From Stegostoma tigrinum (taxonomy: Eukaryota), in the NCBI RefSeq assembly GCF_030684315.1, contig NC_081369.1:548828-612688 (forward strand): DNA of 63,861 bases, given 5' to 3'. The position numbers and the translations under genes were made by a program. Position 1 is the stretch's first letter. Each line of letters begins with the position of its first letter. The notes under the pieces were generated by a model. That model was given only the letters and a program-made list of their open reading frames with translations. It was not told where the DNA came from and made no database searches. Below, piece by piece: positions 13,689 to 53,927 of this stretch.

Positions 13689-13788
13689 CTAACGCTGCTG
13701 AAACTGTTTCTTCAGAATGTCCAGCGCTTTTTGCATCCACAGTTCCTTTGGGTCAACACAGATCTCCAAACCCCCTGTTGTCTTGAAG
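13689..13788 (-). CDS. Chemokine-like locus C, exon 3 (intact)
   Basis: Polypyrimidine tract ctctttgttctctgctcag|; phase 2; (L)FKTTGGLEICVDPKELWMQKALDILKKQFQQR-TAG, a classic chemokine F-x-T...ICVDP..W helix exon. Confidence 0.88.
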
Positions 13789-14660
13789 CTGAGCAGAGAA
13801 CAAAGAGGTTATAATGTGACGGGAGGTCAGTTTAACACATGGTAGAATCTCCACTGTGAACTGGAATTAGCTACTCTGGTGTCTCCACCATTGAACACCC
13901 ATTTCCTAAGCATTCCTGCAAAGTGTTTGATGGGGACAGTGTAGAAGAAACTTTACTCTGTATCTAATCCTGATCCCTTACAATTCTGCAGATTAGAACA
14001 GTAAACAGTGCAGTCTCACCACGGCCTAGTACTTGTTAGTTATTCTTTCACAGGACTTGGCTAGGCCAGCATTTGTTGCCCACCCCTAATTGCTGTGGGT
14101 CTGGAGTCATGTAGGCCAGACAAGGTAAGGATGGCAGTTTCCTTCCCTGAAGGACATTAGTGTTGCAGTTTTTGTACTCCAACTCACTTGCTATAAAAGC
14201 CAACATTCCATTCTCCTTTACAATTAATATAATTGTGACTGATCCAACTGTACCCTTATTCCACTTTCCTCCCTGAACCCTTGAAGCCGCCACTGATCAG
14301 TACTCTCTGACCTGTTTGTGAATGCTGAGCGATTTGTGTCATTTACATCATGCCTCAGGAGCCACCTAATCCTGTGCGCTGTGCTGACTGTGTACTGGTG
14401 CCCAATGCCTGGGCTATCACTTTTGGCACTTTGGCAAGCCCCATCACGGTTTCACATTCCTGAATGGTGTGTTCAGACCCTTGAAATCCTGAAGATCAGT
14501 ATCATTTTCACCTTAATGAATTGTTTGAGCAGCTTAATACCTGTGATTGAGAGTCTGTGTGAACAAATATGGTTTACTAGCTTGTTCAGTACATTTCCCA
14601 TTTGTTCAGGACCTACAATATGAGCCCAGTGTTCTTCATATCCTGCTACTAACAACTTAC

Positions 14661-14810
14661 AGGACACCAGGGGATGAGCAGTCTGGCATTGCCTTGGAGC
14701 TGTCAGTGTGTCCTTCTTCAGGTACAAGAATGCTCTGAATCGCTGTGGATAAAGAATATTTACAATATTAAAAGTGGTGGAGGATTGTTGAGAGCAATTG
14801 CTTTGGTTGA
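14661..14810 (-). pseudogene. Chemokine-like locus C, exon 2 (degenerate; alternative in-frame acceptor at 14742)
   Basis: Ends ...MPDCSSPGV-ct|gtaagt (C3, phase-2 donor as in chemokines). The acceptor at 14810 gives VNQSNCSQQSSTT (CC apparently mutated to CS) but is out of frame with the 3' end. The acceptor at 14742 gives an 82-nt in-frame exon lacking C1 and C2. Confidence 0.65.
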
Positions 14811-16526
14811 CTGTAAGCAAATGACCTCTGTAATGAAACAGCGCTGGCTTTGAATTTCCAAAATCCTTCACACTTCTGATATATCAGTCATTGCGTCATT
14901 CAGTGTTGGGCTGGGGCGAGGCCACTCAATGTGTCTGCCATTAGTTCAATTTGTCCTTGCAATCTGCAAGTCAGGAAATTCAAACAGATTACAGGATTTT
15001 TGACTATGAAGGAGAAAATGATCAGAGGTCTGGTCATGTAGTTGGAATAGTGTGAACTGAAGTCTTGTCTGGAAAAGTGAGGAATATATTTGGGATGCAT
15101 GAACCAGGTTACAATGCAGATCCATGAGACAATTACAAATTCACGTGAACATTTGCCCCTATTAGCAGAGGCCGCAAATATGACAGTCAGTTGCACTGGT
15201 CCAGGATAAAGCACCAGCTAGATCACAGATGGAGCTCTGACTGCAATTCTGGGTACTGCAACACAGTTTAGAGCTACATTGAACAATAGATCAGATTGGG
15301 GTCACAGGGAGCAACTGGACAGCAAGGGTTAAGGAGGAATGTCTGGATATGTTAGCTTTAAGAAAATGGCTGGACAGGATGGGAAATGTTTCCTTTGGGA
15401 TTAGTATTGTGAGAGGTGATCTGCGATCTCGAGTTGGAAACGTCAGCCTTGGTAATCCTGGATGTTGATTTCACCATCAAGAGGTAGGTTCTGGTCATTA
15501 GGGGTAACGTATAATAATTGAGGGGTGGAGAAGGAAGGAACTTTTTCCTCTTGGGGGCGGGATCAATGACTAGATTAGGGGTCTTAGATTTCAGAGAAGG
15601 GGCAGGAGGTTAAGAGGAGTCGCAAGGAGGAATGTTCTTCACCAGAGGGTGATGCGAATCTGGAACTCTCTGCCTATAAAGGCGGTAGAGACAGATACCC
15701 TCAGAACATTTAGAAAATATTTACAAGCTCACTTGCGATTCTCAGGCATACGAGACTGTGGCTAAAGTGCTGGAAAATGGGATTAGAATAGTTCGGAGGT
15801 TTTGACCGATGCAGACTTAATAGACTGACTGACCTTTTTCTGTGTCATAGACTTCTATGACTGATATCAGTGCTGATGGAAGCTGGAGACTGTACATCCC
15901 CTTAGTCTTCCTGGCACTGATTGTCAGTCTAAATGCTTTACAGATCCAAGTGACCTCGAGCATGGGGTGCCACCGTGGCATCACTGGCAAACCCAATTTC
16001 TGCACTGGGATATGGTCTTGGTGCAGAGACCTGTTAAGTTGTACAGCCTGCTATCAGGTCTGGCACAGCGATAGAAGCTGTTTGAGTGTCTGACTACATA
16101 CAATAGCAGCATTCAGCAAAATACAACAGTCAGCTCTGGGAGCCAATTCCCACCTGAAACTCAAAAATCTCTGTTGTTGCTCCTTTTTTGATGGAGCAGG
16201 CACCCAGAGTCCTGATAGTAAGGGTAACGTCAAAGACTTTGTGGAGACATCGTACATGTATCTTGTTAGATTGAAGGATTGAGAAAGAAATGGGAAAGAG
16301 AAAGACCTGAAATGAAACCAGGTACTGAAAGAGAAATATAGAGGAAAAGAAGACAGGAAAGAGAAGAATCAAAAATGAAACAGTTCTAAATCTGCCAACA
16401 ACTATCGTGCACACTCAGGAGAAAACTGCTGAAAGCACTGTAGTGTGAAAGTCCAATCACTCACATGTAACAATCCTATCTGTAATTCAAAAGGTGTTTA
16501 CATTCCTAATCATCAGATATCAGTAG

Positions 16527-16872
16527 GGCCGGCACGGTGGCTCAATGGTTAGCACTGCTCCTTCCCTGGGTTCAATTAGACCTTTGGGTAACTCCCTGTG
16601 TGGAGTTTGCACATTCTCACTGTGTCTTCATGGGTTTCCTCCAGGTGCTCCGGTTTTCTCCCACAGTCCAAAGATGTGCAGGTTAGGTGGATTGGCCGTG
16701 CTAAATTGCCCGTAGTGTTCAGGGATGCGTAGGTTAAATGGATTAACCATTGGAAATGCTAGGTAACAAGGATGGGGTGCGGTGGGTATCATGGGGGGCT
16801 GAGTCTGGGTGGGATAGTCTTCAGAGGGTCAGAGCAGACTTATTGGACTGAATGGCCTGTTTCCATACTGTA
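16527..16872 (+). mobile_element. HE1-like SINE
   Basis: tRNA head and conserved core as at 1757. Confidence 0.9.
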
Positions 16873-17074
16873 TCGATAGATATGTCGATGGATTTATATC
16901 TAAAATGATATTTGATATGTTAGATGCTAAATTGCCACAAATGAGCTAAATTGTTATACTTCCATTCACTTATAAACGAGGAACACAAGTAAGTCATTCA
17001 ACCCTTCAAGCCTGCTCGACCATTCAATAAGATCATGGCTGATGTGATTTTAACCTCAACTCTATATTCCCATG

Positions 17075-17285
17075 ATAGTAGGAACTGCGATGCTGGAGAA
17101 TCTGAGATAACAAGGTGTAAAGCTGGATGAACATAGCAGGCCCAGCAACATCAGAGGAGCAGGAAAGCTGACGTTTCGGCTCTGGACCCTTCTTCAGAAA
17201 TGGAAGAATCTTCTGAAGAAGGGTCCAGACCCAAAACGTCAGCTTTCCTGCTCCTCTGATGTTATCCAGCTCTACACCTTGTTAT
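17075..17285. mobile_element. Palindromic Penelope terminal-repeat insertion with 15-bp TSD
   Basis: Inverted arms; TSD CTCTATATTCCC(A/G)TG at 17060-17074 and 17286-17300. Confidence 0.85.
17168..17197 (-). ncRNA. Minimal hammerhead ribozyme core
   Basis: CUGAAGA-AGGGUCCAGAGCC-GAAAC-GUC on the - strand; the + arm (17213-17242) has GAAA mutated to AAAA. Confidence 0.6.
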
Positions 17286-18094: not shown

Positions 18095-18158
18095 CTGCAC
18101 CATGACTGATCCAGACTATGTCCAGGAGAAGGAGTCCAACAAGAAGGTAATCTTTCAT
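18095..18158 (-). CDS. Chemokine-like locus C, exon 1 (signal peptide)
   Basis: ATG...MKDYLLVGLLLLDIVWISHGA-g|gtaaat; 64 nt, phase 1, typical size and phase for chemokine exon 1; linkage to exons 2-3 is inferred. Confidence 0.7.

Positions 18159-20036: not shown

Positions 20037-20038
<2 letters not shown>

Positions 20039-20068
<30 letters not shown>
20039..20068. repeat. (GT)n microsatellite
   Basis: Uninterrupted gt run. Confidence 0.95.
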
Positions 20069-20070
<2 letters not shown>

Positions 20071-20664
20071 GTGAGTGCAGGGATTCAGTAAAAAAAATGT
20101 GAAAAATAATTTTGTTTAACATTTCCACCACCGGGAAAAGTAGGCATGTGGCCAAGGAACCAGTAACAAGCAAAGCCTGGTAAGGACAATGCTGACGTGA
20201 CAAGCAAAGTAAAGGGGCCAGGATAGCGATTTAAATCAATGTCGAGTTGAAGGGGGAAATAAAGCACTTAACCCACACAGTGCCCACCCCTCCCTAAAGG
20301 TAATATGGACCAGGGTAACAGCCCCAATCAGGGAACTCATATTTTATGAAACTATCTGGCTGACCTCATTACAATCACTAGACAAAGGTCCTATGCTTTA
20401 CTGTTCTGTGCCCTACGTAAAGGAATGATGTTTGTGGTTCTGCTCATACCTTCCCAGAGAGCTTCCTGAAACGCACGTACACTTTGTAACACAGTTTAAC
20501 TCCTATCTAATCCACCTTCCCAATTCTCAGCCAATCAGCTGACATTGGCTTACTCCATGAGTGGGCAGTGACCAATGGAAGGTGAAGATGAAAACTGGTG
20601 GGAAATTCAACCTGGTTTCTCTTGAATGGAAAACTGAAAGCTGAACAATTACACCCTTGTCCAA

Positions 20665-21212
20665 ATTAAGCAGCTGAACTCATCTTGAACCTTAACAACT
20701 TCTCCTTCAATTCCTCCCACTTCCTCCAAACAAAGTGGGTGGCCATGGGTACCTGCATGGGCCCAAGCTATGCCTGCCTCTTTGTAGGATACATGGAACA
20801 ATTCCTTCTCCGAAGCTACACTGGCCCTATCCCCCACCTCTTCCTCTGTTATATTGATGACTGCTTCGGTGCCGCCTCGTGCTTCCATGAGGAGCTCGAG
20901 CAGTTCATCCACTTCACTAACACCTACCACCCCAACCTCAAGTTGCCCTGGACTATTTCTGATAACTCTCTCTCCTTTCTGCATCTCTCTGTTTCCATCT
21001 CTGGCAACTGCCTGGAAACCGATATCTATTTCAAGCCTACCAACTCCCACAGCTAGCTAGAATACACCTCCTCCCACTGACCTTCCTGCAAAAATGCCAT
21101 CTCCTATTCCCAATTCCTTCACCTCCGCCGCATCTGCTCCCAAGATGAGGCATTCCACTCCTGGACATCTCAGATGTCCTCGTTTTTCAAGGGCAGCAAC
21201 TTCCCCTCCACG
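20665..21212 (+). mobile_element. Penelope (Neptune-like) reverse transcriptase fragment
   Basis: NNFSFNSSHFLQTKWVAMGTCMGPSYACLF...YIDDCF...TDIYFKPTNSHS. Confidence 0.9.
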
Positions 21213-21453
21213 ATAGTCTCTCCCATTGGTCTCCAACCACATTTGTCCCTGTACCGTAAACAGCTTCACTCAGTTTGATGATTGGAGTAGACATGTGGAA
21301 AGTTAGTTAATTACCATTCACAGTCTTTCATTTTAATGAGCACAAAAACAGGATTATTGCAAATGATCAGAGAATCAGTTTGTGGATCCAATCTTCAAAC
21401 AGATTCTTCATTCTGCCTGTCTCCCAGTGTAACATCAGTCAATTCAACACTCC

Positions 21454-21626
21454 AAGATAGCAAATTGTGGAGCCGGATGAACACAGCAGGCAAAGCAGCA
21501 TCCGCTTGGCAATCTGTGTTCATCCAGCTCCACATCTCGTAAGATGCTGCTTGGCCTGCTGTGTTCATCCAGCTTCACACTTTGTTATCTCGGATTCTCC
21601 AGCATCTGCAGTTCCCATTATCTCTG
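21454..21626. mobile_element. Palindromic Penelope-derived insertion in the chemokine A 3' UTR, 13-bp TSD
   Basis: TSD A(A/G)TTCAACACTCC at 21441-21453 and 21627-21639; empty site in copy B near 51786. Confidence 0.9.
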
Positions 21627-21681
21627 AGTTCAACACTCCGCATGTTTCCAGTGGATTGAAAGGTTGTACTTTAAGTAGGTT

Positions 21682-21784
21682 CTAGCTTTCAATCCCCAAT
21701 TTCTTCTCCAGATATGCCACTGCATTTTGAACCCACTTCTCACTGGCTCTCGTACAAATTCTCATCTTCCTCCTGTTTGTGAAG
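21682..21784 (-). CDS. CC chemokine copy A, exon 3
   Basis: ctctttcag|; (I)FTNRRKMRICTRASEKWVQNAVAYLEKKLGIES-TAG, with C4 and conserved WV. Confidence 0.93.
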
Positions 21785-21886
21785 CTGAAAGAGTGAGATG
21801 AGATTATGATTATCAGAGAATCACAGGTATGAGCTCCAAACCTTTCATTTCCACAGACAGTGATAAAAACACTGTAAAACACTCAC

Positions 21887-21995
21887 ATGATAGAGGGAGT
21901 GGAGCAGCCAACCGTCCTGGTGAAGCTTACGAGCCGTTTATGAGGAATGCGAGTGGTCTTAAAGTTCTCACAGCAATCGAAAGTGACAGAGCCGG
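21887..21995 (-). CDS. CC chemokine copy A, exon 2
   Basis: cctcattgcag|...|gtgagt; AGSVTFDCCENFKTTRIPHKRLVSFTRTVGCSTPSI; adjacent CC plus C3; phase 1-2. Confidence 0.94.
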
Positions 21996-22356
21996 CTGCA
22001 ATGAGGAAGAGTAGGAATGGAGATGGTGAATCCTTCAACACATTCACAGCACATTCTCACTGACAGCCTCCTTTTCCTCCATGTTTTCATCCAGAAGCAC
22101 TTTGAGTGTACACAACACAAACAGACCATTCAGCCCACCTGTTCCCTGCCGCAGTTTCAAACCCTCCTGGCACAGAACTCACTCAACCCATCCACATATC
22201 CAGCTATTTATCTCTCCCTCATATGTATATCCAGTCTCTCTTTAAAACATCTTAATATTATTCACTTTCACCACTCCTTCCAGCCTCAGGGTACACTTTC
22301 TAATCACTCTCTAGCTAAAGCATGTTCTACTCCATTCCTAATGGGATTGATTAGGA

Positions 22357-22671
22357 GTTTTTTCCCAGAGTGGGGGACTCAATTACTAGGGGTCATGAGT
22401 TCAAAGTGAGAGGAGGAAAGTTTAAGGGAGATATGCGTGGAAAGTTCTTTACGCAGAGGGTGGTGGGTGCCTGGAATGCATTACTGGCGGAGATGGTAGA
22501 CGCAGACACATTAGCGTCTTTTAAGATATATATGGACAGGTACATGAATGGGCGGGGAGCAAATGGACACAGACCCTTAGAAAATACATGACAGGTTAGG
22601 CAGAGGATCTCAAACGGCACAGGCTTGGAGGGCCGAAGGGCCTGTTCCTGTGCTGTAATTTTCTTTGTTCT
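22357..22671 (+). mobile_element. CR1 3' end insertion specific to copy A intron 1
   Basis: TRGHEFK...KFFTQRVV ORF; TSD TTGATTAGGA at 22347-22356 and 22672-22681; absent near 52510. Confidence 0.88.
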
Positions 22672-22829
22672 TTGATTAGGAATTGTCCTCAGTTCTGCTC
22701 TCTATCACAAGTGGAAACATCATTCCCACACCCACTCTATCAAACCCCTTGGACATATCCAAAACTGCCATCAGGCCTCTTTTCAGACTTCTGACTACTT
22801 GTGGAAAGTCTTGCAGCCATTTCCACACT

Positions 22830-23615
22830 ACAAACGTAAGATGTAGCATTTTGGTAAAGGAAGTCAGGCCAGGACACACAGTTAATAGTAAGTTCCTAGG
22901 GACTGTTATCGGACAAAGAGAACTTGGGTTGCAGTTTTATAGTTCCTTGAAAGTGGAGTTGCAGGCGGACAGGGTGGTGAAGAAGGCTTTTGGTAGACTT
23001 GCTTTTATTGGTCATTGTATTGAGTACAGGAGTTGGTAGGTTATGTTGTGGCTTACAGGACATTGGTTAAGCCAGTTTTGAAATACTGCATGCAATTCTG
23101 GTCTCCCTACTCTTAGAAAGACGTTGTTATTGTAAGGGATCAGAAAGATTTGCAAGGATGTTGCCAGTATTAGAGGCTTTGAGCGACAGGGAGAGGCTGA
23201 ATAGGCTAGGGGTATTTTCCCTGGAATGTCAGAGGCTGAGGGGTTACCTGGCAGAAGTTTAAAAACGAATAAGAGCATGGACAGAGTGATTATTCAAGTT
23301 CTTTTGCTCAAGATAGGCAAGCCCAAAACTGGAGGGCATAGGTTTAAAGTGAAAGGGTAAAGATTTAAAAGGGAAACCAATGGGCAATATTTTCACCTGG
23401 CAGGTGGTGTGTATGTGAAATGGGCTGTAAGAAGAGGTAGTGGAGGCTAGTATAATTACAATATTTAAGTTACATCTGAATAGGTATATGAATGGGAAGT
23501 GTTTAGAGGGACATGGGCCAAATGCTGACAAATGGGACAAGATTAATTTACAATATCTGGTTGGCGTGGACAATATGGACCAAAGTGTCTGTTTCCATAC
23601 TGTATGACTGTATAA
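22830..23615 (+). mobile_element. Older CR1 3' fragment in chemokine intron 1 (counterpart ~52675-53500)
   Basis: QRELG...DRVVKKAFG...EYRSW ORF. Confidence 0.8.
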
Positions 23616-23934
23616 CTAGACATTGAATATTGACAGGGATTGGAAAGACAGAGCAGGACAGATTAACCATCATTCTAGTAAAAACCTAGTACCAGCTTAA
23701 TGGGCTGAGTAGTCTCACATGCTCTCTCTCGCTCTCTGTCTCTCTGTTTTGATGTGATTTTATTTGGCATCATTGGCCCACAGTTTCTGAATGGAGTGAG
23801 GAGGGATCATTACATTAACCCTAATAAGTAACACAAACAGGCAAGGGAAAGCAGCAGGGGCACTGGAACCTGTTCCTGTTTTCCTCATTCTCAAGTTCTG
23901 AGCAAAGATTGGGAAGAAGGAAGGCTTCTCTTAC

Positions 23935-24019
23935 CTGGTGCAGCAGAAACACCATCTTGGATCGAGCAGGTTGCCAGTGCTCCCAGCACAACAGTAGCTA
24001 CACACAGTGCTGTCCTCAT
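23935..24019 (-). CDS. CC chemokine copy A, exon 1 (signal peptide); 98-aa precursor
   Basis: gccaggATG; MRTALCVATVVLGALATCSIQDGVSAAP-g|gtaaga; 85+109+103 nt gives an open 98-aa frame. Confidence 0.93.
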
Positions 24020-24094
24020 CCTGGCCTGGCCCAACTTGCAAGTGTTCAGTGTTGCAGGGCGAGTGTGGATGACGAGGGAGCTGTCACCTCCTGG

Positions 24095-24237
24095 TTTATA
24101 TCCTGGAGAGACTGTACCGAGTCAGCAATTCAGACCCTCCCTGAAACTTTCCCCATGCCCCAGCAATGACACTGTGCCTGGAATTGTTCCTCCATGGCTG
24201 TTCTCCCTGAAATGGGAAGTTCATGTTGTTCTCTGAA
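24095..24237 (-). promoter_or_regulatory. Chemokine A proximal promoter: TATA box with kB-like and GAS-like motifs
   Basis: TATAAA (- strand) 24095-24100; GAAACTTTCCCC 24143-24154; GGGAAGTTCA 24214-24223; TTCTCTGAA 24229-24237; all retained in copy B. Confidence 0.65.
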
Positions 24238-24574
24238 TGTGATTTTTGGAGACAGGAGCATGAGCAGCTGGAACTTCTGAGGTCAGTGTTTCTCAGCAAA
24301 TTGTCATCTCGATTCCCTCAGCCTGGCCCCAACTTCCCTCTCCAGGCTAGAGAGAGGCAATGGGAGCACTCGAGCTTCCTGAGTGACCCATTGCTCACTG
24401 AGTCTGCTGTCAGAGAGGCAGCTCAGAGCAGGAAGTGAGATTAACATCAAAATATCTCACTGCAGGAGAAAAAGGTTGCGTTTCCATAGCGCCCTTCCCC
24501 AACTCAGGAACTCTCAAAATATAAAATTGTCTGTCGGGTCTTTCTCAGCCATCGTCACTGTCAATATTGTAGGA

Positions 24575-24772
24575 CAAGAGAATTTATGTGACACCAGGTT
24601 ATAGTCCAACAGGTTTATTTAAAATCACAAGCTTTTGTAGCGCTGCTCCTTTATTAAGTGAAGGAGCACCTTCAGGATTTCACCTGACAATTTTGCAGTG
24701 CAAATCAACCTGTTGGGCGATTAGCTGGTGACTTCTGACCTTATCCACCCTAGTCCAACACCGGTCCCTCCA
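24575..24772. mobile_element. Penelope (Poseidon-like) terminal-repeat insertion with perfect 13-bp TSD
   Basis: caccaggttatagtccaacagg motif; TSD CAATATTGTAGGA at 24562-24574 and 24773-24785; absent in copy B near 54477. Confidence 0.8.
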
Positions 24773-24801
24773 CAATATTGTAGGAGGGACAGCAGAAACT
24801 G

Positions 24802-25120
24802 TGGCACGGTGGCTCAGTGGGTAGCACTGTGGCCTCACAGCACCAGGGACCCAGGTTCGATTCCAGCCTCAGGTGACTGTCGGTGTGGAGTTTGCACATT
24901 ATCCCCGTGTCTGCGTGGGTTTCCTCCGGGTGCTCCGGTTTCCTCCCACAGTCCAAAGATGTGCAGGCTAGATGGGTTGGCCGTGCTAAATTGCCTGTAG
25001 TGTTCAGGGGTGTGTGGGTTATGGGGGGGTGGGTCTCAGTGGGATGCTTCAAAGGGCGGTGTGGACTTGTTGGGCTGAAGGCCCTGTTTCCACACTGTAG
25101 CAAATCTAATCTAATCTAAT
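24802..25120 (+). mobile_element. HE1-like SINE specific to copy A
   Basis: Full head and core with (aatct)n tail; absent near 54505. Confidence 0.92.
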
Positions 25121-26349
25121 CCCACAAACTACAGTGTAATAGTCACCTAACAATCAACCATTGACAGTTGCTTTTATGAGTCAAGGCATAGAGTATAAAA
25201 GCAGGCATCTAATGCTGGAGCTGTACAGGACTTTGGTTTGGCCACAGCTGGAGTACTGTGTGTAGTTCAGGTCCCTGCACACTATTGGAATTATATGATA
25301 GCACTGAAGGGGATTGCAGGTCTGGGATGCAGTGCATGAGCTAGGAAGAGAGGTTGGATTAACTCGCGTTGTTTTCTTTGCAGAAGAGAAGGCTGGGGGA
25401 GGGGGACCTGATCTCGGTGTCTCAGAGTCAGAGGGGTATGGACAGGAGGATAGAAAGCTGCTGTTTCCCTTTATTCAAGTGTCATTACAAAGGGTCATCA
25501 TTTTCAAATGAGTGGAAGGAGGTTTAGAGAGAATTGGAGGAAACATTTCTCGCCCAGAGGGCAGTGGCAGGTCATTGAGACAGGAAGCCTCACAATCTTT
25601 AAAAAGTAGTTGCTGAGCACTTATAATGTCATAGCATTCAAGGCAATGGGCTTAATGTGGGAAAGTAGGACTAATGCAGGTGGTTGTGTATTTTTGGCAG
25701 TGCAGTACTGATGGGCTGAATGGCTTCTTCTGTACTGTATGATGCTCTGAATCAGTTTTAATGATGTGCATTAAGGGATATTGCCTAGGATATCAGGGAG
25801 AGCTGTCTTTCTCTCCTTCGTCATCAACCCAAGGGCTGTTTTCCATCCAGTCGAGAGGACAGATGAGACTCGCTGGGCTATCATTTATTGTCCATCCATA
25901 ACGGCCCCTGATGAAGGTGGCAGTGAGCTGCCTTCTTGAATCTACAATGCAATTAAGGAGGGAATTCCAAGATTTTGACCCAGAAACAGTGAAGGAACAT
26001 TGATATGTTTCCAAGTCAGGATGGTGGGTGGATTGGAGGGCACCTTGCAGGTCATGGTGTTCCCATGTACCTGCTGCCCTTGTCCTTCCAGATGGAGTTG
26101 ATTGCAGTTTTGGAAGGTGCTGTCTAAGGTGCTTGGGTGAATTTGTACAGTGTATCTTGTAGGTAGCACACAATGCTGCTACTGAGCATTGGGGAGAGAA
26201 GGCGTGGATGTATATGAATGTGGTGCCTGAAATAACTCCACACAGGCCAGTACCCTGTCGACATGTCACCCTTTAATTACACATGACCCATCCTTGACTT
26301 TAGTACTGCCTCTTCAGAATCAGCTGTCAGAATCTCTGACATTTTTCTT

Positions 26350-27943
26350 TTTTGGAGGATGTGTTTGCTGCCAGAAAGCACATTAATGTGGAGAAAACTC
26401 CTGGGCCTGATCAAGTCCATCTACAGAAGTTGTGGTAGGACAGGAAAGAAATTGCAGAGGCCCTTGCAGAGACTTTTGCTTCATCCTTTGCCACTGGTGA
26501 AGTTCTGGAAGACTTGAGGGTGGCTAATATTGTTCTACTGCTCAAGAAAGGTAGCAAAGAGAAGCCCGGGAACTACAGGCCAGTGAGCCTGACATCAGTG
26601 GTAGGCAAGTTATTGGAGAGGATACTGAGGGACAGGATCGACCATCATTTGGATAGTCAAGGTCTGATTAGGGATAGTCAGCATGGAGTTGTGCACAGGA
26701 AGTCATGTTGACAAATCTTCAAAACATTTTTGAAGAGGTAACCAAGTAACCAAGAGGATGGATGGGTGTGGGACTGTGGATGTTTTCTATATGGACTTTA
26801 GTAAGGCCCTTGATAGGGTCCCACATAGAAGGCAAGTCATGAAAGTTAGGTCACATTTGATCCAGAGAAAGCTAGCTATTTGGATTCAAAATTGGCTCAA
26901 TTGGAGGAAGCTGAGGGTGATGGTTGAAGGTTGATTCTCAGAGTGGAGGCCTGTGACTAGTGGTATGCCACAGAGGTCAATGCTGGGACCTTTGTTATTT
27001 GTTATTTACATAAATGATCTGGATGTGAATGTACAAGGCATGAGTAGTAAGTTTGTGAATGATACAAAATTAGGAGGTATCATTGATGATGAAGAAGGTT
27101 ATAAATAATTACAGAGGGGATTTGTTCAGATGAGGAAGTGGGCTGAGGATTGGCAAATGCAATTCAATATAGATACGTGTGGGCTGTTGCATTTTGGAAA
27201 GTCAAACCAGTAGGACTTATACAGTAAATGGTAAGGTCCTGAGGAGTGTTATGGAACAGATCTAGCAGTTCAAGTACATTGTTCATTGAAGTAGTGTCAC
27301 AGGTGGACAGAGTGGGAAAGAAGGCATTTAGCATGCTGACTTCCATCAGTCGAGGCATTAAGTATGGGAGCAGTGATGTTATGCTATAGTTGTCATAAGG
27401 AGTTGGTGAGACTACACTTGGAGTATTGTTTTGGTCACCCTGTTATAGGAAAGACATAGTTAAATTGGAAAGTAAGCAAAGAAGATTTACAAGGATGGTG
27501 CCAGGACTAAATTATAGGGAGAAGTTGGCCAGGATAGAACGTTATTCCTTGGAACATAGGAGATTGAGGGGTAGCCTTATTGAGGTGTTTAAAATCGTGA
27601 GGGGCATAGATAGGATGAATGCATATAGCCTTTTTTCCCAGGGATTGGAAATTGAAAACTGGATGGTATAGTTTAAGGTGAGAAGGGATAGATTTAAGAA
27701 GGACCTGAGGGGTAACAGAGAGTGGTGCATATATGGAATGGGCTGCCAAGGAAAGTAGTTGAGGCCTGTTCAATAGCAACATTTAAAAAGCATTTGGATA
27801 GGTTCCTGGATGGGAAGGGTTTAGAGGGATATGGACTAAATGTGGACAATTGGAACTAACTGAACGGGCACAATAGTCAGCCTGGAGCAGTTTGACCCAA
27901 AGGGCCTGTTTCCATGATGTATTAATCTATAACTCTATGACTC
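26350..27943 (+). mobile_element. CR1 RT plus 3' end, inserted into a solo LTR in copy A only
   Basis: PGNYRPVSLTSVVGKLLE, SQHG, FWSPCYRKD; the uninterrupted LTR is at 55628-55852. Confidence 0.88.
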
Positions 27944-30900
27944 TGTCAGCCAGGGCTCAGTGATTGGACCAGATTCACAGCCCCAGTCAGGGACCTCATA
28001 TTCTATGATGTGCACCTGGCTGATATCGTTGCAATTACTACAGTGTCAAACAAACCGACTGCTTTATCCTGAATGGTGTCAAGCTTCTTGTGTGTTGATG
28101 CAGCTGCACCCATCCAGGTAAGTGGGGAATATTCCATTGTACACTGATCTGTGGCTTGTAGATGATGAACAGGCTTCTGGGAATCAGGAACAAAATTCCC
28201 TCGAAGTTGCGTTGGTTCTGTGTGCAGCCACTCGAAGACCCTGTGCACCGTGATCAGCATCGGAACACTGATCATGGCATTGAGTGTCAGTTCTGGAAGT
28301 CACCGCCACACACCGGCCTCAGGGGGCCATTTGGCTGGAAAGAAGGTAGGAGAGATAGCTATTCAGGGGGTGAGTTACTCGCTGTAGTATTCGAAGCATC
28401 TGATCTGTTCTTGTAACCATTGTATTTACATGGCAAGTTCAGTTTCTAGTCAATGATAACCGCTAGGATGTTGACAAATGATATTCAATGATGATAACAC
28501 TGTTGAATGTCAAAGGGCATTAGTTACATTGTCTCCTAACGATGATGGTCATTGCCTGGTATTTGTGTGGCATGGAAGTCACTTGCTATTTGTCAGCCCT
28601 AGCCTGGATATTATCCAGATTTTGTTGCATTTGAAAATGGACGGTATCAATATATGAGGATTCATGATGGTGCTGAACATTGTAATCATCAGCAAATATC
28701 CCCATTTCTAACCTTTTGGAGGATGGAAGGTCACTGATGAAGCAGCTGAAGATGGTTGGGCCTCACACATTAACCTGAGGAACTCCTGCAGAGATGCCCT
28801 GGAGCTGAGATGACTGACCTCCAACAACAACAACAATCCTCCTGTGTGACAGGTATGACTCTAAACAGCGGAGAGTTTGACCCTTATACCCATTGATTCC
28901 AGCAATGCTAGGGACTCCTTGATGCCATGTTCAGTCAAATGTAGCCTTGATGTCAAGGACTATGATTCACACTTCACCTGTGAAATTCAGCTCTTTTATC
29001 CATGTTTGGATGGAGATTGCAATGACGTTAGTAGCACAGTGACCTTCACAGAGCCCAAACGGTCAGAGATACAAGATATAGTTTATTCCACTGTCATAAC
29101 TACATACAGTTAATATTGTACTGATGGGAATGTACTGTCTAATAATTTGTGTGAGGAGGTTCAGATTAGCTCTGATTAACCCTCCCTTGTCCATGTCCTT
29201 AGACAACAGATTATTTTACAATCGCATGCCCCACCAGCAGTCATGTAGTGACTGAACCTGATACTATGAACTCCCCCAGCTCGACAGTGGAAAAGGCCTG
29301 AACTTATTCCATTTCAGGGGAAAATCGAACTGAGTGTTGGATGTAATTATTCCCAATGTGGGCAGGTTAGCAATCTTCATTCCAGCAGCAGATTCTTTTG
29401 TATGATAACTTTGAAAGTCAAATGTGTTATTCCTGATTCTTCATTTTGGTTTATGGTTTTCACCATGTGACTAGTACACCACACCATTCAGTGGGTGAAG
29501 GAAAGAGGACAATGGAAACTCTGATTCCAGAAATCAGGACTCAGTAATAGCCTTAATGAACAAGGGAAAGGCATTGCTGAACGGTGGTCTGTTATCCACA
29601 ATCTTAATAAAATCTAAAAGCCCAGACCCATCACTGTAACAAATGCAGTAGAAGTCTGGCCATGGCTTAATTCATGACTGAATAAAGCTCCACAAATAGA
29701 GTGAAAGAAGTAAGTAATCAAAATGTGAGAACCACAGAGATTGAGCACAATCCACTCCACTTCCCCATAGCTGGGTTCGGGGGTGGGGGGGGGGGGAGGT
29801 GGTTGGTGGTGCGGTGAGGGTACGAACTAACAAACAGAAGATATGATTGGAGACCCATTGGAATCATTGTGGTCATATATTGTTACGCCAAGAGGTGAGA
29901 TTTTCAGGAGAATTGGGAGAGTTCGCATAGAGTACACATAGTTAGTAATTCACATGAACAGCTACATCAAATTCCCCAACCAGTGTCAATAGAATTCAAC
30001 ATCTGAGAGTGACCCATTGCCCTAGACCATCAGCATTACATGCAAGTTCAGGGAGAGAGGAGAGAAACCCCCAGACAGACTCAACCAGTGAAAAGAAGAC
30101 ATTGAGGGGAGACTGTGGAAATGTGGTTATTCAATCACTTTGGGAGTTACAAATAAATCAATGATGTAACTAATAATTTAATGATGTTCTAGGCTGTGCC
30201 AATAGGGAACCAGAGAAGTGTCTGCAAGAGGGAGTGAGTGAGAAACAGCAATTTGTACAAACTTTCCTCCTGCGTGCGGTGAGAGGAAGCATCAATCCTT
30301 AACTCCATTTTACTTCTGGAGTTACTGCAAACTAGATTTACCAATTGGATTAACACTTAAGGAGACTGGGACACACCAAGCCCCAGACTGAGAGTGGGAC
30401 AGACCATGGGGGAGTCTGTTTTTCTCTAGCCACCCACATACCATGCGATGGGTGTAGGGGCAGAGATTCCATGGTTCAGAGGATGTAAGGTTGAAGAAGA
30501 GTGGGGCTTAGGGAGTTCAGGGACAACCAAAGAAGACAGTCCACTCCCTGAGAGTTTCACTTTCCAAATGTCAAATCGCAGAGGGAATAACTTTTAGGTG
30601 AGAGGGGAAAAGGCGAAGGGAGATGTGGGAGGGAGATGTTTTCCACAGAGAGTGATAGGTGCTTGGAGGTGGTGGAAGCAGATAAGATGGCAACATTTAA
30701 GCAGCATTTAGACTGACATATGACAGGCAGAAAATAGCAGTTCAGATGGGATTAGTTTAGAATAGCATCATGGTCAGCACAGGCGTAGTGGACTGAGGGG
30801 CTTGGTTCTATGTTGCACTGTTTTATATTTTATGTTCTATGTGTCCACCATATCAGTCAGTGAGGGAGACCTGGGGTCAATGAGAGGGTAATGGCTGGAA

Positions 30901-31483
30901 ATATTGAATCACAGGAGCGTGTCCTCGAGCTGAACATATCCATGGAGACAGCAGAGTGCAGGGGCAGGAGACCTGGCCTGTGATATGCCAGCCACTGACC
31001 TGAGGCCAGTTTATACAGCACACCATCTCTTTGAGAGAGCCTGGACCCACTGCTCACAGCCAGCTGCTTCAACCCCTTGAAGCCTGTTTGTGTGTTTGAG
31101 CTGTTCAGAGGCACAGAGAGTGAGAGTTCCTGTGATTTCAGAGCTAATGGAGATCCCCCTAAAATCTATATTTAATGGTTGTCTCACTCATTGAGTCACA
31201 GACACAGCCCTTTGGAGAAACAGTCCCAGAGAAATACAGCAATGAACCAGAAAGAGGAAATCTGAATCAGACTCTCAGAATCCTCAAAGTCCCTTCCCAA
31301 CAGCTCAGTCTGTGCCATTGCACCCCAGAGACTGCTGAGGTTCACAAAGGAATTCACCACCAACATCTCCAACAAGGGATAATTTAACTATCGCCTCTTG
31401 CTGTTTATCACCATCACTGAATGCCTCACATTTAGCATTCTGGGGTTAGCATGGACCAGAAATTCAATTAGACTCACAAGAGT

Positions 31484-31695
31484 AACAGACTCCCCCATGG
31501 TCTGTCCCACTCTCAGTCTGGGGCTTGGTGTGTCTCAGCCTTCTGTAGTGTTAATCCAATTGGTAAATCTCGCTTGCAGTAACTCCAGAAGTAAAATGGA
31601 GTTAAGGATTGATCCTTCCTCTCACCGCACGCAGGAGGAAAGTTTGTACAAATTGCTGTTTCTCACTCACTCCCTCTCGCAGACACTTTTCTGGT
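31484..31695 (-). repeat. Inverted local duplication of 30209-30420
   Basis: 212-bp near-identical reverse complement; absent at the copy B site near 60865. Confidence 0.9.
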
Positions 31696-32840
31696 CAGAG
31701 GCCAGGAAAACTGTCATGAGTAATTCATTGATATAAGAAGGCATAGAGCTGGATGAACACAGCAAACCAAGCAGCATCAGAGGAGCAGGAAGGTTGACGT
31801 TTTGGGCTTAGACCTTCCTTCAGTAATTCACTTCCTGACTCACCAATGCTTTTCCATTATTTACAAGGCAGAATTAGGGAATGTGATGGAATACTTGCCA
31901 CTTGCCAAAATAAGTGCAGTTTCAATAACATTCAGAATTTTGACACCATCCTGGACAGTGGTTAATTGGCACCACGCCCACAATTAGTCCCTAATCAATC
32001 TCTTTCAGTTCAGCAACAACACTGGGATCAACCCTGCAATGTGCTCAGTTTGGGTTCCGCCAGGGCGCTCAGCTCCTGACCACAGCTTTGGACAAAACAG
32101 CTGAATTCCAGAGGTAAGGTGAGTGACAGCATTTGACATCAAGGATGCATTTGGCTGAGTGTGGCATCAAGGAGCCCCTCGCAAAACTGGAATCAATGAG
32201 AATCAGGGACAAACTCTCCAGTGGTTGCACTCATACATGGCACATAGGAAAGTGTTTGTTGTTGTTGGAGGTTAGTCATATCAACTGTAGGGTATCACAG
32301 CAGTTCCTCCAGGTAGTATCTTAGGCCCAACCGCCTGAACCAATTCTTCACCTGCTTCATTAATGACCTTGCCTCCATCATAATGTCAGAAGTCAGCACG
32401 TTTGCTGATGATTACACAATGTTCAGTGTCATTCACAACTCCTTAGGTACTGAGGCTGTCCATGTTCAAATGTAGCAAGATCTGGACAATATACAAGTGG
32501 CAAGTGACATTCATGCCATGCAGTGCTCAACAATGGCCACCTTCAACAGGACAGAATCTAACCGTCGCCCTTCAGTATTCATTACCATCACTGATTGCCC
32601 CATTATCAATGATCATAAACTCAACTGAGCTCACCACAGAAATGCAGCGGCTACAACAGCAGCCCAGAGCTGGGAATACTGCGGTGAGTAACTCACCTCC
32701 TGGCTCCCCAAAGCCTGCCCATCGTTTACAAGGCACAAGTCAGGAATGTAATGGAATACTCCCCACTTACCTGGTTTGTTGCAGCTCCAACAACACACAA
32801 GAAGCTTGACACCATCCAGAACAAAGCAGTCCACTTGATG

Positions 32841-49859: not shown

Positions 49860-50117
49860 AACAACAAGTCCACACCGCCCCTTGGAGCATCCCACCCAGA
49901 CCCATCCCACTATAACCCACACACCCCTGAACACTACAGGCAATTTAGCATGGCCGGTACACCTCGCCTACACATCTTTGGACTGTGGGAGGAAACCCAC
50001 GCAGACACGGGGAGAATGTGCAAACTACGCACAGACAATTACCTGAGGCTGGAATCAAGCCCGGGTCCCTGGCGCTGTGAGGCTGCAGTGCTAGCCACTG
50101 AGCCACCATGCCGCCCG
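49860..50117 (-). mobile_element. HE1-like SINE
   Basis: Reverse complement of consensus; same internal deletion subtype as 45600. Confidence 0.88.
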
Positions 50118-50951
50118 TTAGGATGGCATAGGAGCAGGAATAGACCATTCAGCCCCTCAACCTGTTCCAACATTCAATTACATCATGGTTGATCAAAAGC
50201 CTAACTCCATTTATCTTCCTTTGGCTCATGAGACTTAGCACTTTTGCCTAACAAAAAGATTTTTCTACCTCAGATTTAAAATTAACAACTGATCCAGCAT
50301 CCACTGCTGTTTATTGAAGAGAGTTCAAAACATCTATCAGTCTTTGTGTGTAGAAGTGCTTTCTAACAGCTCTCATGAATGACCTGGCCCTAATTCTCAG
50401 ACTATGGCTCCTAGTTCTAGAATCCCCAACCAGCGTAAATAGTTGATATTTATCTATCCTGTCTTTTCCTGTTAATATCTTAAAAACCTCTATCAGATAA
50501 TCCTTTGACCTCCTCAGTTGTGGATGAAATTGCTTAATTTGTATGACATTTCCACATAAATTCACCCCTGAAGTCAAGGTATCATTCTTATGAGCCTCCG
50601 CTGTCGTCTCTCCAAGGCCACTGTATTCTGCCGAAAGAGTGGTGCCCAGACCTGCCCAAGTCTGGCAAAACCAGGGTATTCCCACAACTTGGGCCAAATT
50701 GTCTGATTCCATGCACTAAATACGATGTAAATGTGATGTAAATATATTGAAATAATATCAGAAAATGTGTAAATGCGCACATGCCATTCTGACGTTGTCT
50801 TAATCTCTGAATGGACAGTGACCAATGGAAGGTGAAGGTGAAAACTGGTGGGAAATTCTAACCAGTTTCTCTTGTACAGAAAACTGAAAGCCAAAAAATG
50901 AAGATGTTTAGAAACAGGAAAACCAGAGGGAAGCTATCTTTGGAAGCACCC

Positions 50952-50957
50952 TTTATT
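50952..50957 (-). terminator. Candidate poly(A) signal of chemokine B
   Basis: First AATAAA (- strand) I found after the stop, about 790 nt downstream. Confidence 0.4.
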
Positions 50958-51739
50958 TCATTGTGACAGTTTCAATGGATGAAAGCCAGGAGCTGGGAAT
51001 TCGGTGAGGCAATAAGGGAGCGGAAAGGGAAAAATCACAACCACTCCCAGATTTCCAATGGAATTAGAATGGGCTCTTGAGACAGTCTGACAGAGACCAC
51101 ATCCACAAAGACTGACCACCCCCAAATCCAGACACAAACCCACACATCACCCTCAGAGACCACCAAGGCCCCACCCACAAAGGCCAACCTACCCCAGCCC
51201 CAGAGACTGACCCTCATGAACATACCCAGAGTATACTCACATCAACACCCTAAGTGTCTGGCCTACCCCCACCCCCAAGCATCTGATCCAACTCTCAAGC
51301 CCACAGACTGACCGACACACCCCAGCCTCAGAGATGGAACCCCACCCCACTGTGATCCCTCACAAACCTCATTTGAGAGAGTTGGAGTTGAAATTGTGCA
51401 AACTACACCTTGCCCAGTGTGGTTGAAGGGGATGGCCAAACAAACCACAGCAAGGGCACAGACTGACTGTCTCTGCTGAGCTCCAGCCTCTGGGATGATC
51501 CTGGGATTAGCTGGACATTTGCTGGAATGTTGTCCTACACCAGACTGACTGTTCCCTCAGTCTCTCCCATTGGCATCCAACCACATTTCCCTCTGTACCA
51601 TGAACAGCTGTCACTCAGCTTGATGATTGGAGTAGACATGGGGAAAATTAGTTTGTTACAGTCTACAATCTTTCAGTTTAGTGAGCACAGAAATAGGAAT
51701 ATCGCAAGTGATCAGAGAAGCAGTTTGTGGATCCAATCT

Positions 51740-51944
51740 TCAAGCAGATTCTCCATTCTGCCTGTCTCCCAGTGTAACATCAGTCAGTTCAACACTCTGC
51801 ATGTTTCCTGTGGATTGAAAGGTTGTACTTTCAGTGGGTTCTTCTCTTTCAATCCCCAATTTCTTCTCCAGATATGCCACTGCATTTTGAACCCACTTCT
51901 CACTGGCTCTTGTACAAATTCTCATCTTCCTCCTGTTTGTGAAG
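51740..51944 (-). CDS. CC chemokine copy B, exon 3 with acidic Ser/Thr-rich C-terminal extension
   Basis: Same acceptor as copy A; FTNRRKMRICTRASEKWVQNAVAYLEKKLGIE then REEPTESTTFQSTGNMQSVELTDVTLGDRQNGESA-TGA. Confidence 0.92.
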
Positions 51945-52046
51945 CTGAAAGAGTGAGATGAGATTATTATTATCAGCAAATCACAGGTACAAGCTCCAAA
52001 CCTTTCATTTCCACAGACGATGATAAAAACACCTTGAAACACTCAC

Positions 52047-52155
52047 ATGATGGAGGGAGTGGAGCAGCCAACTGTCCTGGTGAAGCTTACGAGCCGTTTA
52101 TGAGGAATGCGAGTGGTCTTAAAGTTCTCACAGCAATCGATAGTCACAGAGCTGG
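52047..52155 (-). CDS. CC chemokine copy B, exon 2
   Basis: cattgcag|...|gtgagt; ASSVTIDCCENFKTTRIPHKRLVSFTRTVGCSTPSI; 109 nt. Confidence 0.94.
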
Positions 52156-53614
52156 CTGCAATGATGAAGAGTAGGAATGGAGATGGTGAATCCTTGAACA
52201 CATTCACAGCACATTCTCACTGACAGCCTCCTTATCCTCCATGTTTTCCTCCAGAAGCACTTTGAGTGCATACAACGCAAACAGGTCATTCAGCCCGTCT
52301 GATCCCTGCTGAAGCTTCAAACCCCTCTTGCACATGACAGTCACCCCATTCACATATCCTGCTATTACTCACTCCCTCATGTGTATATCCAATTTCTCTT
52401 TCAGACATCTCAATGTTATTCACTTTGACCACTCCTTCCAGTCTCAGGATCTACTTTCTAATCACCTTCTGGGTAAAGGGTGTTTTCCTCAATTCCTACT
52501 GGGATCTTTTAGGAATTGTTTAAATGGATCATTTTGAGTTCTGCTCTCTATCACAAGTAGAAACATCTTTCCTGTACCCACCTTAACAAACCCCTTAGAC
52601 ACCTCCAAAACCTCCATGAATTCTCCTCTCAGACGTTTGTGTACTTCAGGAACATCTCACAGCCATTTCCATAATATAAGTGTGAGGTGGTACATTGTGG
52701 AAAGGCAAATCAGTGCAGGACTTATACAGTTAATGGCACGGTCCTGGGGAGTGTTTCCAAACAAAGAGACCTTGGGGTGCAGTTTCATAGTTCCATGAAA
52801 AAGGAGTCGCAGGTAGACAGGGTAGCGAGGAAGGCATTTGGTATACTGGAAAATTGCCTTTATTGGTCAGTGCATTGAGTATAGGATTTGGGAAGTTATG
52901 TTGCGGCTATACAGGACATTGGTTTTTGGTTTGGCTTCTTCTGGAATACTGCATTCAAGTCTGGTGTCCCAGCTATGGGAAAGATGCTGTTAAACTTGAA
53001 ACAGTTCGGAAAAAATTTGGAACAAATGTGCTAACATGATTGGAGGGTTTGAGCCAGAGGGAGAGGCTTAATAAGCTGGGGCTATTTTTCCCATAATATC
53101 AGAGGCTGAGGGGTGACCTTACACAGGTTTATAAAATCATTAGGGGCATGGATAGGGTGAATAATCAAGTTCTTTTCCCCAGGGTAAGGGGATTCAAAGC
53201 AAGAGGGCATAGGTTTAAACTGAGAGGGAAAGGTTGAAAAGGGAGCTAAAGGGAAAAATTTTCACGCAAAAGTGGTGGCATGCATGGAATGATCTGCCAG
53301 AGGAGGTTATTGAGGCTGATGAAATTACAATGTTTAAAATGATTCTGCATGGATCTATGATTGGAAGGGTTTAGAGGGATATGGGAAATGCTGGCAGTAA
53401 TTTAGTACTAGAGTAATTTAGAATACCTGGTCAGCATGGACAAATTGGATGGAAGGGTCTGCTTCCATGCTAAACATCTCTGTTACTCTCTGACTCCATG
53501 ACATGAAGGTCAAAATTGACAGGGATTGGACAGATAGAGCAAGACAGATGAACCAATTGAATCACTCTGGTAAAGTGCTTGTACCAACTTGATGGGCTGA
53601 GTGGTCTCACACTT

Positions 53615-53645
<31 letters not shown>

Positions 53646-53842
53646 GTTGTGTTTCTATTTGGAATCATTGGCCTACAGTTTCTGAATGGAGTGAGGAGCA
53701 ATCTTTACATTAACGCTAAGTAACACAACATTAAGTTACACAAACAGGCGAGGGCAACCAGCAGGGGCACTGGAACCTGTTCCTGTTTTCCTCACTCTCA
53801 AGTTCTGAGCAAAGATTGGGAAGAAGGAAGCCTCTCTCTTAC

Positions 53843-53927
53843 CTGGTGCAGCAGCAACACCATCCTGGATCGAGCAGATTGCCAGTGCTCCCAGCACAAC
53901 AGTAGCTACACACAGTGCTGTCCTCAT
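53843..53927 (-). CDS. CC chemokine copy B, exon 1 (signal peptide); 132-aa precursor
   Basis: MRTALCVATVVLGALAICSIQDGVAAAP-g|gtaaga; 85+109+205 nt open frame. Confidence 0.93.

What the first reader, a model, noticed from the sequence alone, without database searches (positions are those of the whole stretch)
13689..53927. Three-locus chemokine cluster tail-to-tail with CIAPIN1, the probable elasmobranch counterpart of the CCL17/CX3CL1/CCL22 locus
Seen: three 3-exon, phase 1/2 chemokine-type loci, all on the - strand and convergent with CIAPIN1. Known: human CCL22, CX3CL1 and CCL17 are co-oriented and convergent with CIAPIN1. Inference: this linkage predates the shark/bony-fish split, but here the trio is one divergent locus plus a recent duplicate pair, so 1:1 orthology is unlikely. 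No CX3C spacing or transmembrane exon is visible, so the locus could inform how fractalkine arose.
Basis: partly seen in the sequence, partly recalled or inferred. Interest (0 to 1): 0.8.

Follow-up and report, generated by a model that had tools for sequence, protein, structure and literature searches.

The report
Shark chemokine missing its CC motif
Beside the CIAPIN1 gene, where mammals keep the immune signals CCL17, CCL22 and fractalkine, sharks carry a run of ordinary chemokine genes plus one well-conserved chemokine gene, also present in skates, that has lost the cysteine pair defining the family, so it probably folds and signals in a way not yet described.

Summary
Three 3-exon chemokine genes lie on the minus strand, tail-to-tail with CIAPIN1. 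Spliced, they equal zebra shark (Stegostoma tigrinum) RefSeq proteins letter for letter. Locus A (13689-18158) encodes an 81-aa signal-peptide protein with only the third and fourth canonical cysteines; the CC motif is gone from a shortened exon 2. This form appears in 14 shark and skate species, gives a species-like tree, and its third exon is better conserved than that of its CC neighbours. It fits none of the CC, CXC, CX3C, XC or CX patterns; ten paper searches found no description. B and C are ordinary CC chemokines of a family with at least five copies in this species, so 'trio' reflects the window's edge. Linkage to CIAPIN1 also holds in four other carpet sharks. Orthology to CCL17, CCL22 or CX3CL1 is positional only: profiles rank other CC chemokines higher, and the tree could not be run. 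Fractalkine hints are weak. A's mechanism (new Cys3-Cys4 bond, non-canonical ligand or modulator) is inferred.

The parts
18095..18158 (-). Locus A exon 1 (64 nt coding): signal-peptide-like segment, phase 1 donor
   Evidence: equals the start of XP_048402991
14661..14742 (-). Locus A exon 2 (82 nt, 27 nt shorter than in B/C): no CC motif; acidic/polar segment, then canonical Cys3
   Evidence: aligns without gap to CCL18 residues 18 onward; profile-profile gap spans the CC motif
13689..13788 (-). Locus A exon 3 (100 nt): Cys4, conserved Trp, C-terminal helix, stop
   Evidence: Pfam IL8 23.3 bits on its own; 24-30 of 32 residues identical in the 9 other species compared
23935..24019 (-). Locus B exon 1 (signal peptide); TATA box 81 nt upstream of the ATG
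21887..21995 (-). Locus B exon 2 (109 nt): CC-X21-C
21682..21784 (-). Locus B exon 3; protein 98 aa = XP_048402197
53843..53927 (-). Locus C exon 1 (signal peptide); TATA box 81 nt upstream of the ATG
52047..52155 (-). Locus C exon 2 (109 nt): CC-X21-C
51740..51944 (-). Locus C exon 3 with a 34-residue longer S/T/E-rich, non-hydrophobic tail; protein 132 aa = XP_059507521
241..12601 (+). CIAPIN1 (anamorsin), 3' seven coding exons (about 241-390, 4783-4856, 5816-5987, 8021-8094, 10409-10527, 11084-11165, 12491-12601); 5' part outside the window
   Evidence: tblastn with named shark anamorsins; splice sites; Pfam Anamorsin_N and CIAPIN1 on the S. tigrinum protein
20539..32000 (.). First copy of the duplicated unit carrying B (approximate ends)
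   Evidence: collinear self-matches at offsets of 27.8-30.3 kb
50789..61087 (.). Second copy of the duplicated unit carrying C (approximate ends)

Best explanation
This is the CIAPIN1-linked chemokine cluster of the zebra shark, most likely the elasmobranch positional counterpart of the amniote CCL22/CX3CL1/CCL17 cluster (probability about 0.8). It holds two kinds of gene. B and C are conventional, cationic, secreted CC chemokines of a multicopy family whose copies group by species; they probably attract leukocytes through a CC receptor, with shark CCR4 the first candidate (inferred). A is a single-copy functional gene (probability about 0.85) derived from a CC chemokine by loss of the first nine or so codons of exon 2, which removed both N-terminal cysteines before sharks and skates split. 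Shown: exon structure, cysteine pattern, distribution in named records, conservation. Inferred mechanism (probability about 0.45 if the gene model is right): the two orphaned cysteines pair with each other and staple the beta2-beta3 hairpin; the protein is a secreted mini-chemokine of hairpin plus amphipathic helix with a loose acidic N-terminal segment; it is not a conventional agonist of chemokine receptors, but binds one conserved partner through its exon-3 surface, acting as a constitutive non-canonical ligand or as a modulator of its CC neighbours.
For: 15 of 17 named A-type records (14 species: 12 sharks of six orders, 2 skates) have no adjacent cysteine pair; all 17 keep C-X15-C. The A tree of 14 rows has skates apart (100/100) and carpet sharks together (100/98), like a species tree. 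Exon-3 identity to Stegostoma, A versus B: Cetorhinus 29/32 vs 21/33, Mustelus 27/32 vs 21/33, Heterodontus 27/32 vs 18/33, Heptranchias 26/32 vs 20/33; skate A 24/32. Pfam IL8 covers only profile positions 26-59 in Stegostoma A (26 or 28 onward in all 4 A types scanned) against 2-60 in B and C. The P-x5-D-x7-C spacing of exon 2 matches CCL18 without a gap, and the profile-profile gap against B spans the CC motif. No CC-bearing micro-exon passed my splice thresholds in intron 1 (0 of 16 open candidates), and both in-frame upstream acceptors within 150 nt read through a stop. A non-RefSeq GenBank model (GCC16408) has the same CC-less junction. The low-confidence AlphaFold2 model has strands 48-51 and 57-60, helix 62-80 and pLDDT under 50 at 24-39. 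Mature net charge -3 to +1 in 4 A types versus +8 in B. Disulfide-adjacent residues form the general chemokine-receptor recognition contacts (PMC12435897, passages). Elephant shark has CCR4 but no listed CCL17 or CCL22 (PMC3568907).
Against: No RNA reads or genomic DNA of other species were available; the cross-species evidence is predicted proteins, most from one pipeline that can borrow models between species. Two Heterodontus isoforms carry cysteines, including an adjacent pair, in an alternative 5' segment, though without a signal peptide and 40 residues from Cys3. The Cys3-Cys4 bond, secretion and any partner are untested; the model has pTM 0.31 and gave no Foldseek match at E<=0.001. Exon 2 is much less conserved (9/28 in skate). 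Similarity searches favour CCL18, CCL2, CCL14, CCL7 and a reconstructed XCL1 ancestor over CCL17, CCL22 and CX3CL1. CIAPIN1 linkage was tested in carpet sharks only.
Confidence: 0.6

Rival explanations
1. A is a normal CC (or CXC/CX3C) chemokine whose cysteine-bearing micro-exon or longer acceptor was missed by annotation in every species.
For: Most models come from one pipeline; no reads were seen. Two Heterodontus isoforms have upstream cysteines. A lone in-frame Cys codon lies just upstream of the exon 2 acceptor in the window.
Against: That upstream frame is closed by a stop, and 0 of 16 candidate micro-exons passed the splice thresholds. 14 species agree; a non-RefSeq model has the same junction. 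The segment before Cys3 varies in length (6 residues shorter in Scyliorhinus).
Confidence: 0.1
2. A is expressed as modelled but works as a disulfide-linked homo- or heterodimer (for example with B-type chemokines), or as a fold-switching protein like XCL1, rather than as a monomer with an internal Cys3-Cys4 bond.
For: Loss of one disulfide contributes to fold switching in XCL1 (PMC11751857, passages). A sits next to the B genes in at least five shark species by accession order. The predicted N-terminal half has low confidence.
Against: Two invariant cysteines are most simply explained by pairing with each other (inference). No co-folding result was available.
Confidence: 0.2
3. A is an antimicrobial peptide precursor that uses only its amphipathic C-terminal helix.
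For: The conserved part is the hairpin and helix; chemokines can have membrane-disrupting activity (XCL1).
Against: The mature protein is near neutral. Single copy and slow change are unlike most antimicrobial peptides (own knowledge).
Confidence: 0.07
4. The cluster is unrelated by descent to CCL17/CCL22/CX3CL1; it belongs with the MIP/MCP/XCL-like chemokines and sits next to CIAPIN1 independently.
For: Best PDB matches are CCL14, CCL7, CCL3, CCL18, CCL2 and the XCL1 ancestor; CCL17 ranks 52 and 60 of 60 shown for the B profile. The Atlas names CCL4- and CCL3-like clusters for B.
Against: Immediate tail-to-tail adjacency to the same housekeeping gene in sharks and mammals is unlikely twice. 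Bit scores of these short domains span only 34-48 across the 60 rows and do not show orthology. Teleost chemokines also lie near CIAPIN1.
Confidence: 0.15
5. A is a decaying pseudogene.
For: Loss of family-defining cysteines; no TATA, NF-kB-like or GAS motif close to the start within the 600 nt scanned.
Against: Intact frame and splice sites here; intact proteins in 14 species; exon 3 better conserved than in the CC neighbours.
Confidence: 0.02

Closest known systems
Amniote CCL22-CX3CL1-CCL17 mini-cluster (human chr16, 57.4 Mb)
   Same: Chemokine genes next to CIAPIN1 (PMC3568907 supplement); three-exon CC-type structure.
   Different: One CC-less gene plus at least five near-identical CC genes, not three distinct genes; no CX3C motif, no transmembrane segment; no preferential similarity to CCL17, CCL22 or CX3CL1.
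XC chemokines (XCL1/lymphotactin)
   Same: Two cysteines; at most one internal disulfide; derived from the CC side of the family (PMC10792014).
   Different: XC keeps the second and fourth cysteines (C-X36-C, PMC1082905), a canonical pair. A keeps the third and fourth (C-X15-C), which are not partners in the canonical fold (PMC2416438).
Zebrafish CX subfamily (PMC2416438)
   Same: Keeps the third and fourth cysteines; arose from CC genes in a cluster.
   Different: CX keeps one N-terminal cysteine, has three extra cysteines and was reported in zebrafish only. A has neither N-terminal cysteine, no extra ones in the mature part, and spans sharks and skates.
CX3CL1 (fractalkine)
   Same: B/C have 21 residues between the second and third cysteine, as CX3CL1 does (CX3C-X21-C-X15-C; CCL17 has 22). 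C extends its last exon into an S/T-rich tail.
   Different: CC not CX3C; tail only 34 residues longer, no membrane anchor; X21 also occurs in human CCL16.
Teleost CCL33/CCL35/CCL39 groups
   Same: CC chemokine genes drawn on CIAPIN1-bearing chromosomes against human chr16.
   Different: Mostly 0.1-1.7 Mb from CIAPIN1 as read from a PDF table whose columns may be off; sequence relationship to the shark genes not tested.

Membership tests
Chemokine (IL8-like) superfamily, loci A, B, C | Pfam IL8 domain above curated cut-off | tested here: met
   33.2, 46.3 and 44.6 bits against 21.3; for A only profile positions 26-59 are covered
Chemokine superfamily, loci A, B, C | Signal-peptide exon and three exons with phase 1 / phase 2 introns | tested here: met
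   exon structure and splice sites; signal peptide judged by eye from hydrophobicity, no predictor run
Chemokine superfamily, locus A | Canonical fold (N-loop, three strands, helix) | tested here: inconclusive
   model pLDDT 67, pTM 0.31, two strands and a helix; best Foldseek rows are chemokines but E>=0.18
CC chemokines, loci B and C | Adjacent Cys1-Cys2, then Cys3 and Cys4 | tested here: met
   Cys 36, 37, 59, 75: CC-X21-C-X15-C
CC chemokines, locus A | Adjacent Cys1-Cys2 | tested here: not met
   only Cys 43 and 59; absent in 15 of 17 named records, non-canonical in the other 2
XC chemokines, locus A | Second and fourth cysteines kept (C-X36-C) | tested here: not met
   spacing is C-X15-C (pattern table)
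CX chemokines (zebrafish), locus A | One N-terminal cysteine plus third and fourth | tested here: not met
   no N-terminal cysteine in the mature protein
CX3C (fractalkine) | C-X3-C motif | tested here: not met
   none in A, B or C
CX3C (fractalkine) | Long mucin stalk and transmembrane helix | tested here: not met
   C tail 38 residues from position 95 with 10 S/T, maximum hydropathy -0.1; A and B stop after the helix
CCL17/CCL22/CX3CL1 orthology group | Position next to CIAPIN1 | tested here: met
CCL17/CCL22/CX3CL1 orthology group | Supported clade with amniote members | not testable with these tools
   no named amniote sequences were returned for a tree; similarity ranks do not favour them
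CCL17/CCL22 group | Agonist of CCR4 | not testable with these tools
   needs a receptor assay

The most novel reading that the evidence does not exclude
Locus A defines a sixth chemokine cysteine class (third and fourth cysteines only), kept as a single-copy gene throughout elasmobranchs, with a rewired Cys3-Cys4 disulfide and its own receptor or modulator role; and the CIAPIN1-linked locus is an old site of chemokine re-engineering that gave this class in sharks and skates and CX3C in amniotes, with the shark B/C type (X21 spacing, extensible last exon) close to the pre-fractalkine state.
Probability: 0.35. Interest if true: 0.8.

Novelty: new variant of a known kind. Interest (0 to 1): 0.63.

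Why it matters
Chemokines are classified by their N-terminal cysteines, and the disulfide region carries the general receptor contacts (PMC12435897, passages). A gene that lost this motif yet stayed single-copy and conserved from skates to sharks (a split of roughly 250-300 million years, recalled) is a natural test of what a chemokine can do without it. Databases hide it under 'C-C motif chemokine 18-like', '8-like' or '4-like'. The cluster also extends the chemokine-CIAPIN1 linkage to cartilaginous fishes and supplies candidate ligands for the cartilaginous-fish CCR4, which had none listed in the 2013 survey. It says little so far about how fractalkine arose.

Tried and rejected
A signal-peptide-like stretch near 16250-16150 was first considered as exon 1 of A and dropped: no in-frame ATG or donor (read by eye); the true exon is at 18158. 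A frameshifted, pseudogene reading of exon 2 of A was dropped once intact orthologues appeared. A DNA scan with four exon queries found no further chemokine copy in the window above background; the 49 long frames listed for 18500-63861 were read by eye as repeat-derived or chance, and were not scanned against Pfam. Hydrophobic 19-residue stretches downstream of B and C (up to 2.37) lie in frames closed off by stops, so are not membrane anchors. The AlphaFold2 model was low-confidence and its Foldseek search gave 0 matches at E<=0.001. The Atlas top hit for A was a 'C-C motif chemokine 17' cluster at 0.89, tied with two CXC clusters and under the tool's 0.9 mark, so a lead only. The profile search of 1.84 billion representatives gave 59 hits; 4 are named elasmobranch A types, and the other 55 unnamed hits (92 bits or less, mostly matching part of the profile) were not examined, so chimaera or bony-fish members are neither shown nor excluded. 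No search for long, membrane-anchored relatives of B/C was run; the last protein search went to CIAPIN1. The contig collection on offer is bacterial and archaeal, so no shark genomic DNA could be compared. Ten paper searches listed no paper describing a shark chemokine without the CC motif or this shark cluster; most subscription papers and all bioRxiv supplements are outside that library, and genome-paper supplements could mention it.
Full report
Setting. The window is repeat-rich vertebrate DNA with one gap (11956-12089) and a duplication at an offset of about 30 kb. Its spliced genes equal Stegostoma tigrinum RefSeq proteins, so it is zebra shark or indistinguishable from it. Seven CIAPIN1 exons run on the plus strand to a stop at 12601.

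Observation. Three minus-strand genes have three exons, phase 1 and phase 2 GT-AG introns and open frames: A 18158-13689 (81 aa), B 24019-21682 (98 aa), C 53927-51740 (132 aa). Identity to named proteins is 81/81, 98/98 and 132/132. All pass the Pfam IL8 cut-off. A's stop lies about 1.1 kb from the CIAPIN1 stop, so the tail-to-tail layout is real. A DNA scan with four exon queries found no further copy in the window.

B and C. Both are CC-X21-C-X15-C chemokines with a cationic mature domain (B +8), a TATA box at -81 and one NF-kB-like and one GAS-like motif in common (motifs recalled, no chance control). In a tree of 33 named B-type proteins the copies group by species or family, and accession runs show at least six records in Hemiscyllium and Heterodontus. 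B and C differ at 5 synonymous and 4 non-synonymous sites in 97 codons (pS 0.071), while six collinear flank blocks differ at 17.8% (binomial P about 0.01). C's long tail is shared with 135-aa Chiloscyllium and, in part, 107-aa Hemiscyllium proteins. An older duplication kept alike by gene conversion or constraint fits this better than a simply recent pair (inference).

Locus A, the main result. Exon 2 is 82 nt instead of 109 and holds one cysteine; the protein has cysteines only at 43 and 59. It aligns to CCL18 without a gap from residue 26 on, Pfam IL8 matches only from profile position 26, and a profile-profile alignment with the B family places its gap across the CC motif. So the first nine or so codons of exon 2, with both N-terminal cysteines, are gone. 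Seventeen named records from 14 species show the same form: Stegostoma, Rhincodon, Hemiscyllium, two Chiloscyllium, Cetorhinus, Mustelus, two Scyliorhinus, Heterodontus, Pristiophorus, Heptranchias and the skates Amblyraja and Leucoraja. Fifteen have no cysteine pair; two Heterodontus isoforms have one in an alternative 5' segment without a signal peptide, 40 residues from Cys3. One record per species (14 rows; the two odd isoforms and one partial model left out) gives a species-like tree. Exon 3 is better conserved than B's in 6 of 6 species pairs compared, clearly so in the four distant ones, and is 24/32 identical in skate. In the window, 0 of 16 open micro-exon candidates with a cysteine pair passed my splice thresholds, and both in-frame upstream acceptors within 150 nt hit a stop. 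The weak point is that all cross-species data are predicted proteins; no reads were seen.

Mechanism. In the canonical fold Cys1 pairs with Cys3 and Cys2 with Cys4 (PMC2416438, passages), so A cannot form either bond. Both remaining cysteines are invariant in the 14-row alignment, which suggests that they pair with each other across the beta2-beta3 hairpin (inference; geometry not measured). The low-confidence model shows that hairpin and the helix, with residues 24-39 poorly predicted. Contacts next to the disulfides are the general receptor-recognition hotspot (PMC12435897, passages), and A's N-terminal segment varies in length and sequence, so ordinary agonism is doubtful. Near-neutral charge argues against strong glycosaminoglycan binding or antimicrobial action. 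The conserved exon-3 surface suggests one conserved partner. I commit to a secreted, internally stapled mini-chemokine acting as a non-canonical ligand or modulator (about 0.45 given the gene model); dimer or fold-switching behaviour like XCL1 (PMC11751857, passages) is the main rival.

Synteny and orthology. Human, mouse, elephant and opossum have CCL22, CX3CL1 and CCL17 before CIAPIN1 (PMC3568907: passages, one of six parts of the main text, supplement searches, part 3 of 5 of file 6 and all of file 12). That survey lists the three genes in amniotes only, lists CCR4 but no CX3CR1 in elephant shark, and draws teleost CCL33/35/39 on CIAPIN1-bearing chromosomes. Named anamorsins of Chiloscyllium punctatum, C. 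plagiosum, Rhincodon and Hemiscyllium share contig length and neighbouring accessions or locus tags with A- or B-type genes (against 48, 51); accession order is indirect evidence. A and B are also neighbours by accession in Heterodontus, Cetorhinus and Heptranchias, where CIAPIN1 was not retrieved. Sequence gives no specific tie: CCL17 ranks 52 and 60 of 60 rows shown for the B profile, CCL22 and CX3CL1 do not appear, and none of the three appears for the A profile. The Atlas lead to a CCL17 cluster is below its threshold.

Fractalkine. No CX3C motif or membrane anchor is present. Two weak hints remain: the X21 spacing of B/C equals that of CX3CL1, though also of CCL16 (PMC1082905, passages), and C shows that the last exon can extend into an S/T-rich tail. 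A review of teleost chemokines states that no CX3C chemokine has been reported in fish (PMC4690017, passages). XC and CX3C types fall within the CC group in a recent tree (PMC10792014, passages and two of ten parts).

Novelty. The genes are in RefSeq under automatic CC names. The Cys3/Cys4-only pattern matches none of CC, CXC, CX3C, XC or zebrafish CX. Ten searches found no description, within a library that lacks most subscription papers. Verdict: new variant of a known kind; interest 0.63, resting on locus A rather than on the synteny.

Noticed in passing
P0014 (Mustelus asterias XP_078066436/439): A named 'eotaxin-like isoform X2' joins an A-type signal-peptide exon (one residue different from Mustelus A) to B-type CC exons: a chimeric gene or a mis-joined model.
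   Followed up: no
P0017, P0022 (Heterodontus A isoforms X2, X1): Alternative 5' segment without signal peptide holds a C-X3-C-C pattern 40 residues before Cys3; probably chance or a modelling artefact, but worth checking against reads.
   Followed up: partly
window 21700-21630 versus 51860-51740: A 1-nt gap near B's stop separates the short and long forms; a Chiloscyllium plagiosum protein (P0002, 117 aa) reads another frame of the same tail region.
   Followed up: partly
window 12797-13451: PolyA hexamers of A (minus strand, 13422 to 12797) and CIAPIN1 (plus strand, 12833 to 13451) interleave, so the convergent 3' UTRs may overlap.
   Followed up: no
window 14770-14743, minus strand: Just upstream of A's exon 2 acceptor the reading frame holds a Tyr-Cys pair after a stop; it could be a relic of the lost CC region turned intron, or chance. 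Needs other genomes.
   Followed up: partly
window 11956-12089: 134-nt assembly gap in the last CIAPIN1 intron; no coding exon appears missing there.
   Followed up: yes
window 10518-10618: 39-nt tandem repeat (2.6 copies) overlapping a CIAPIN1 exon end repeats the donor-site region.
   Followed up: no
window 20649-21197, 33106-34304, 46412-47056, 62236-62742: Retrotransposon-like fragments (reverse-transcriptase- and endonuclease-like frames, judged by eye and from recall) and many short interspersed repeats.
   Followed up: no
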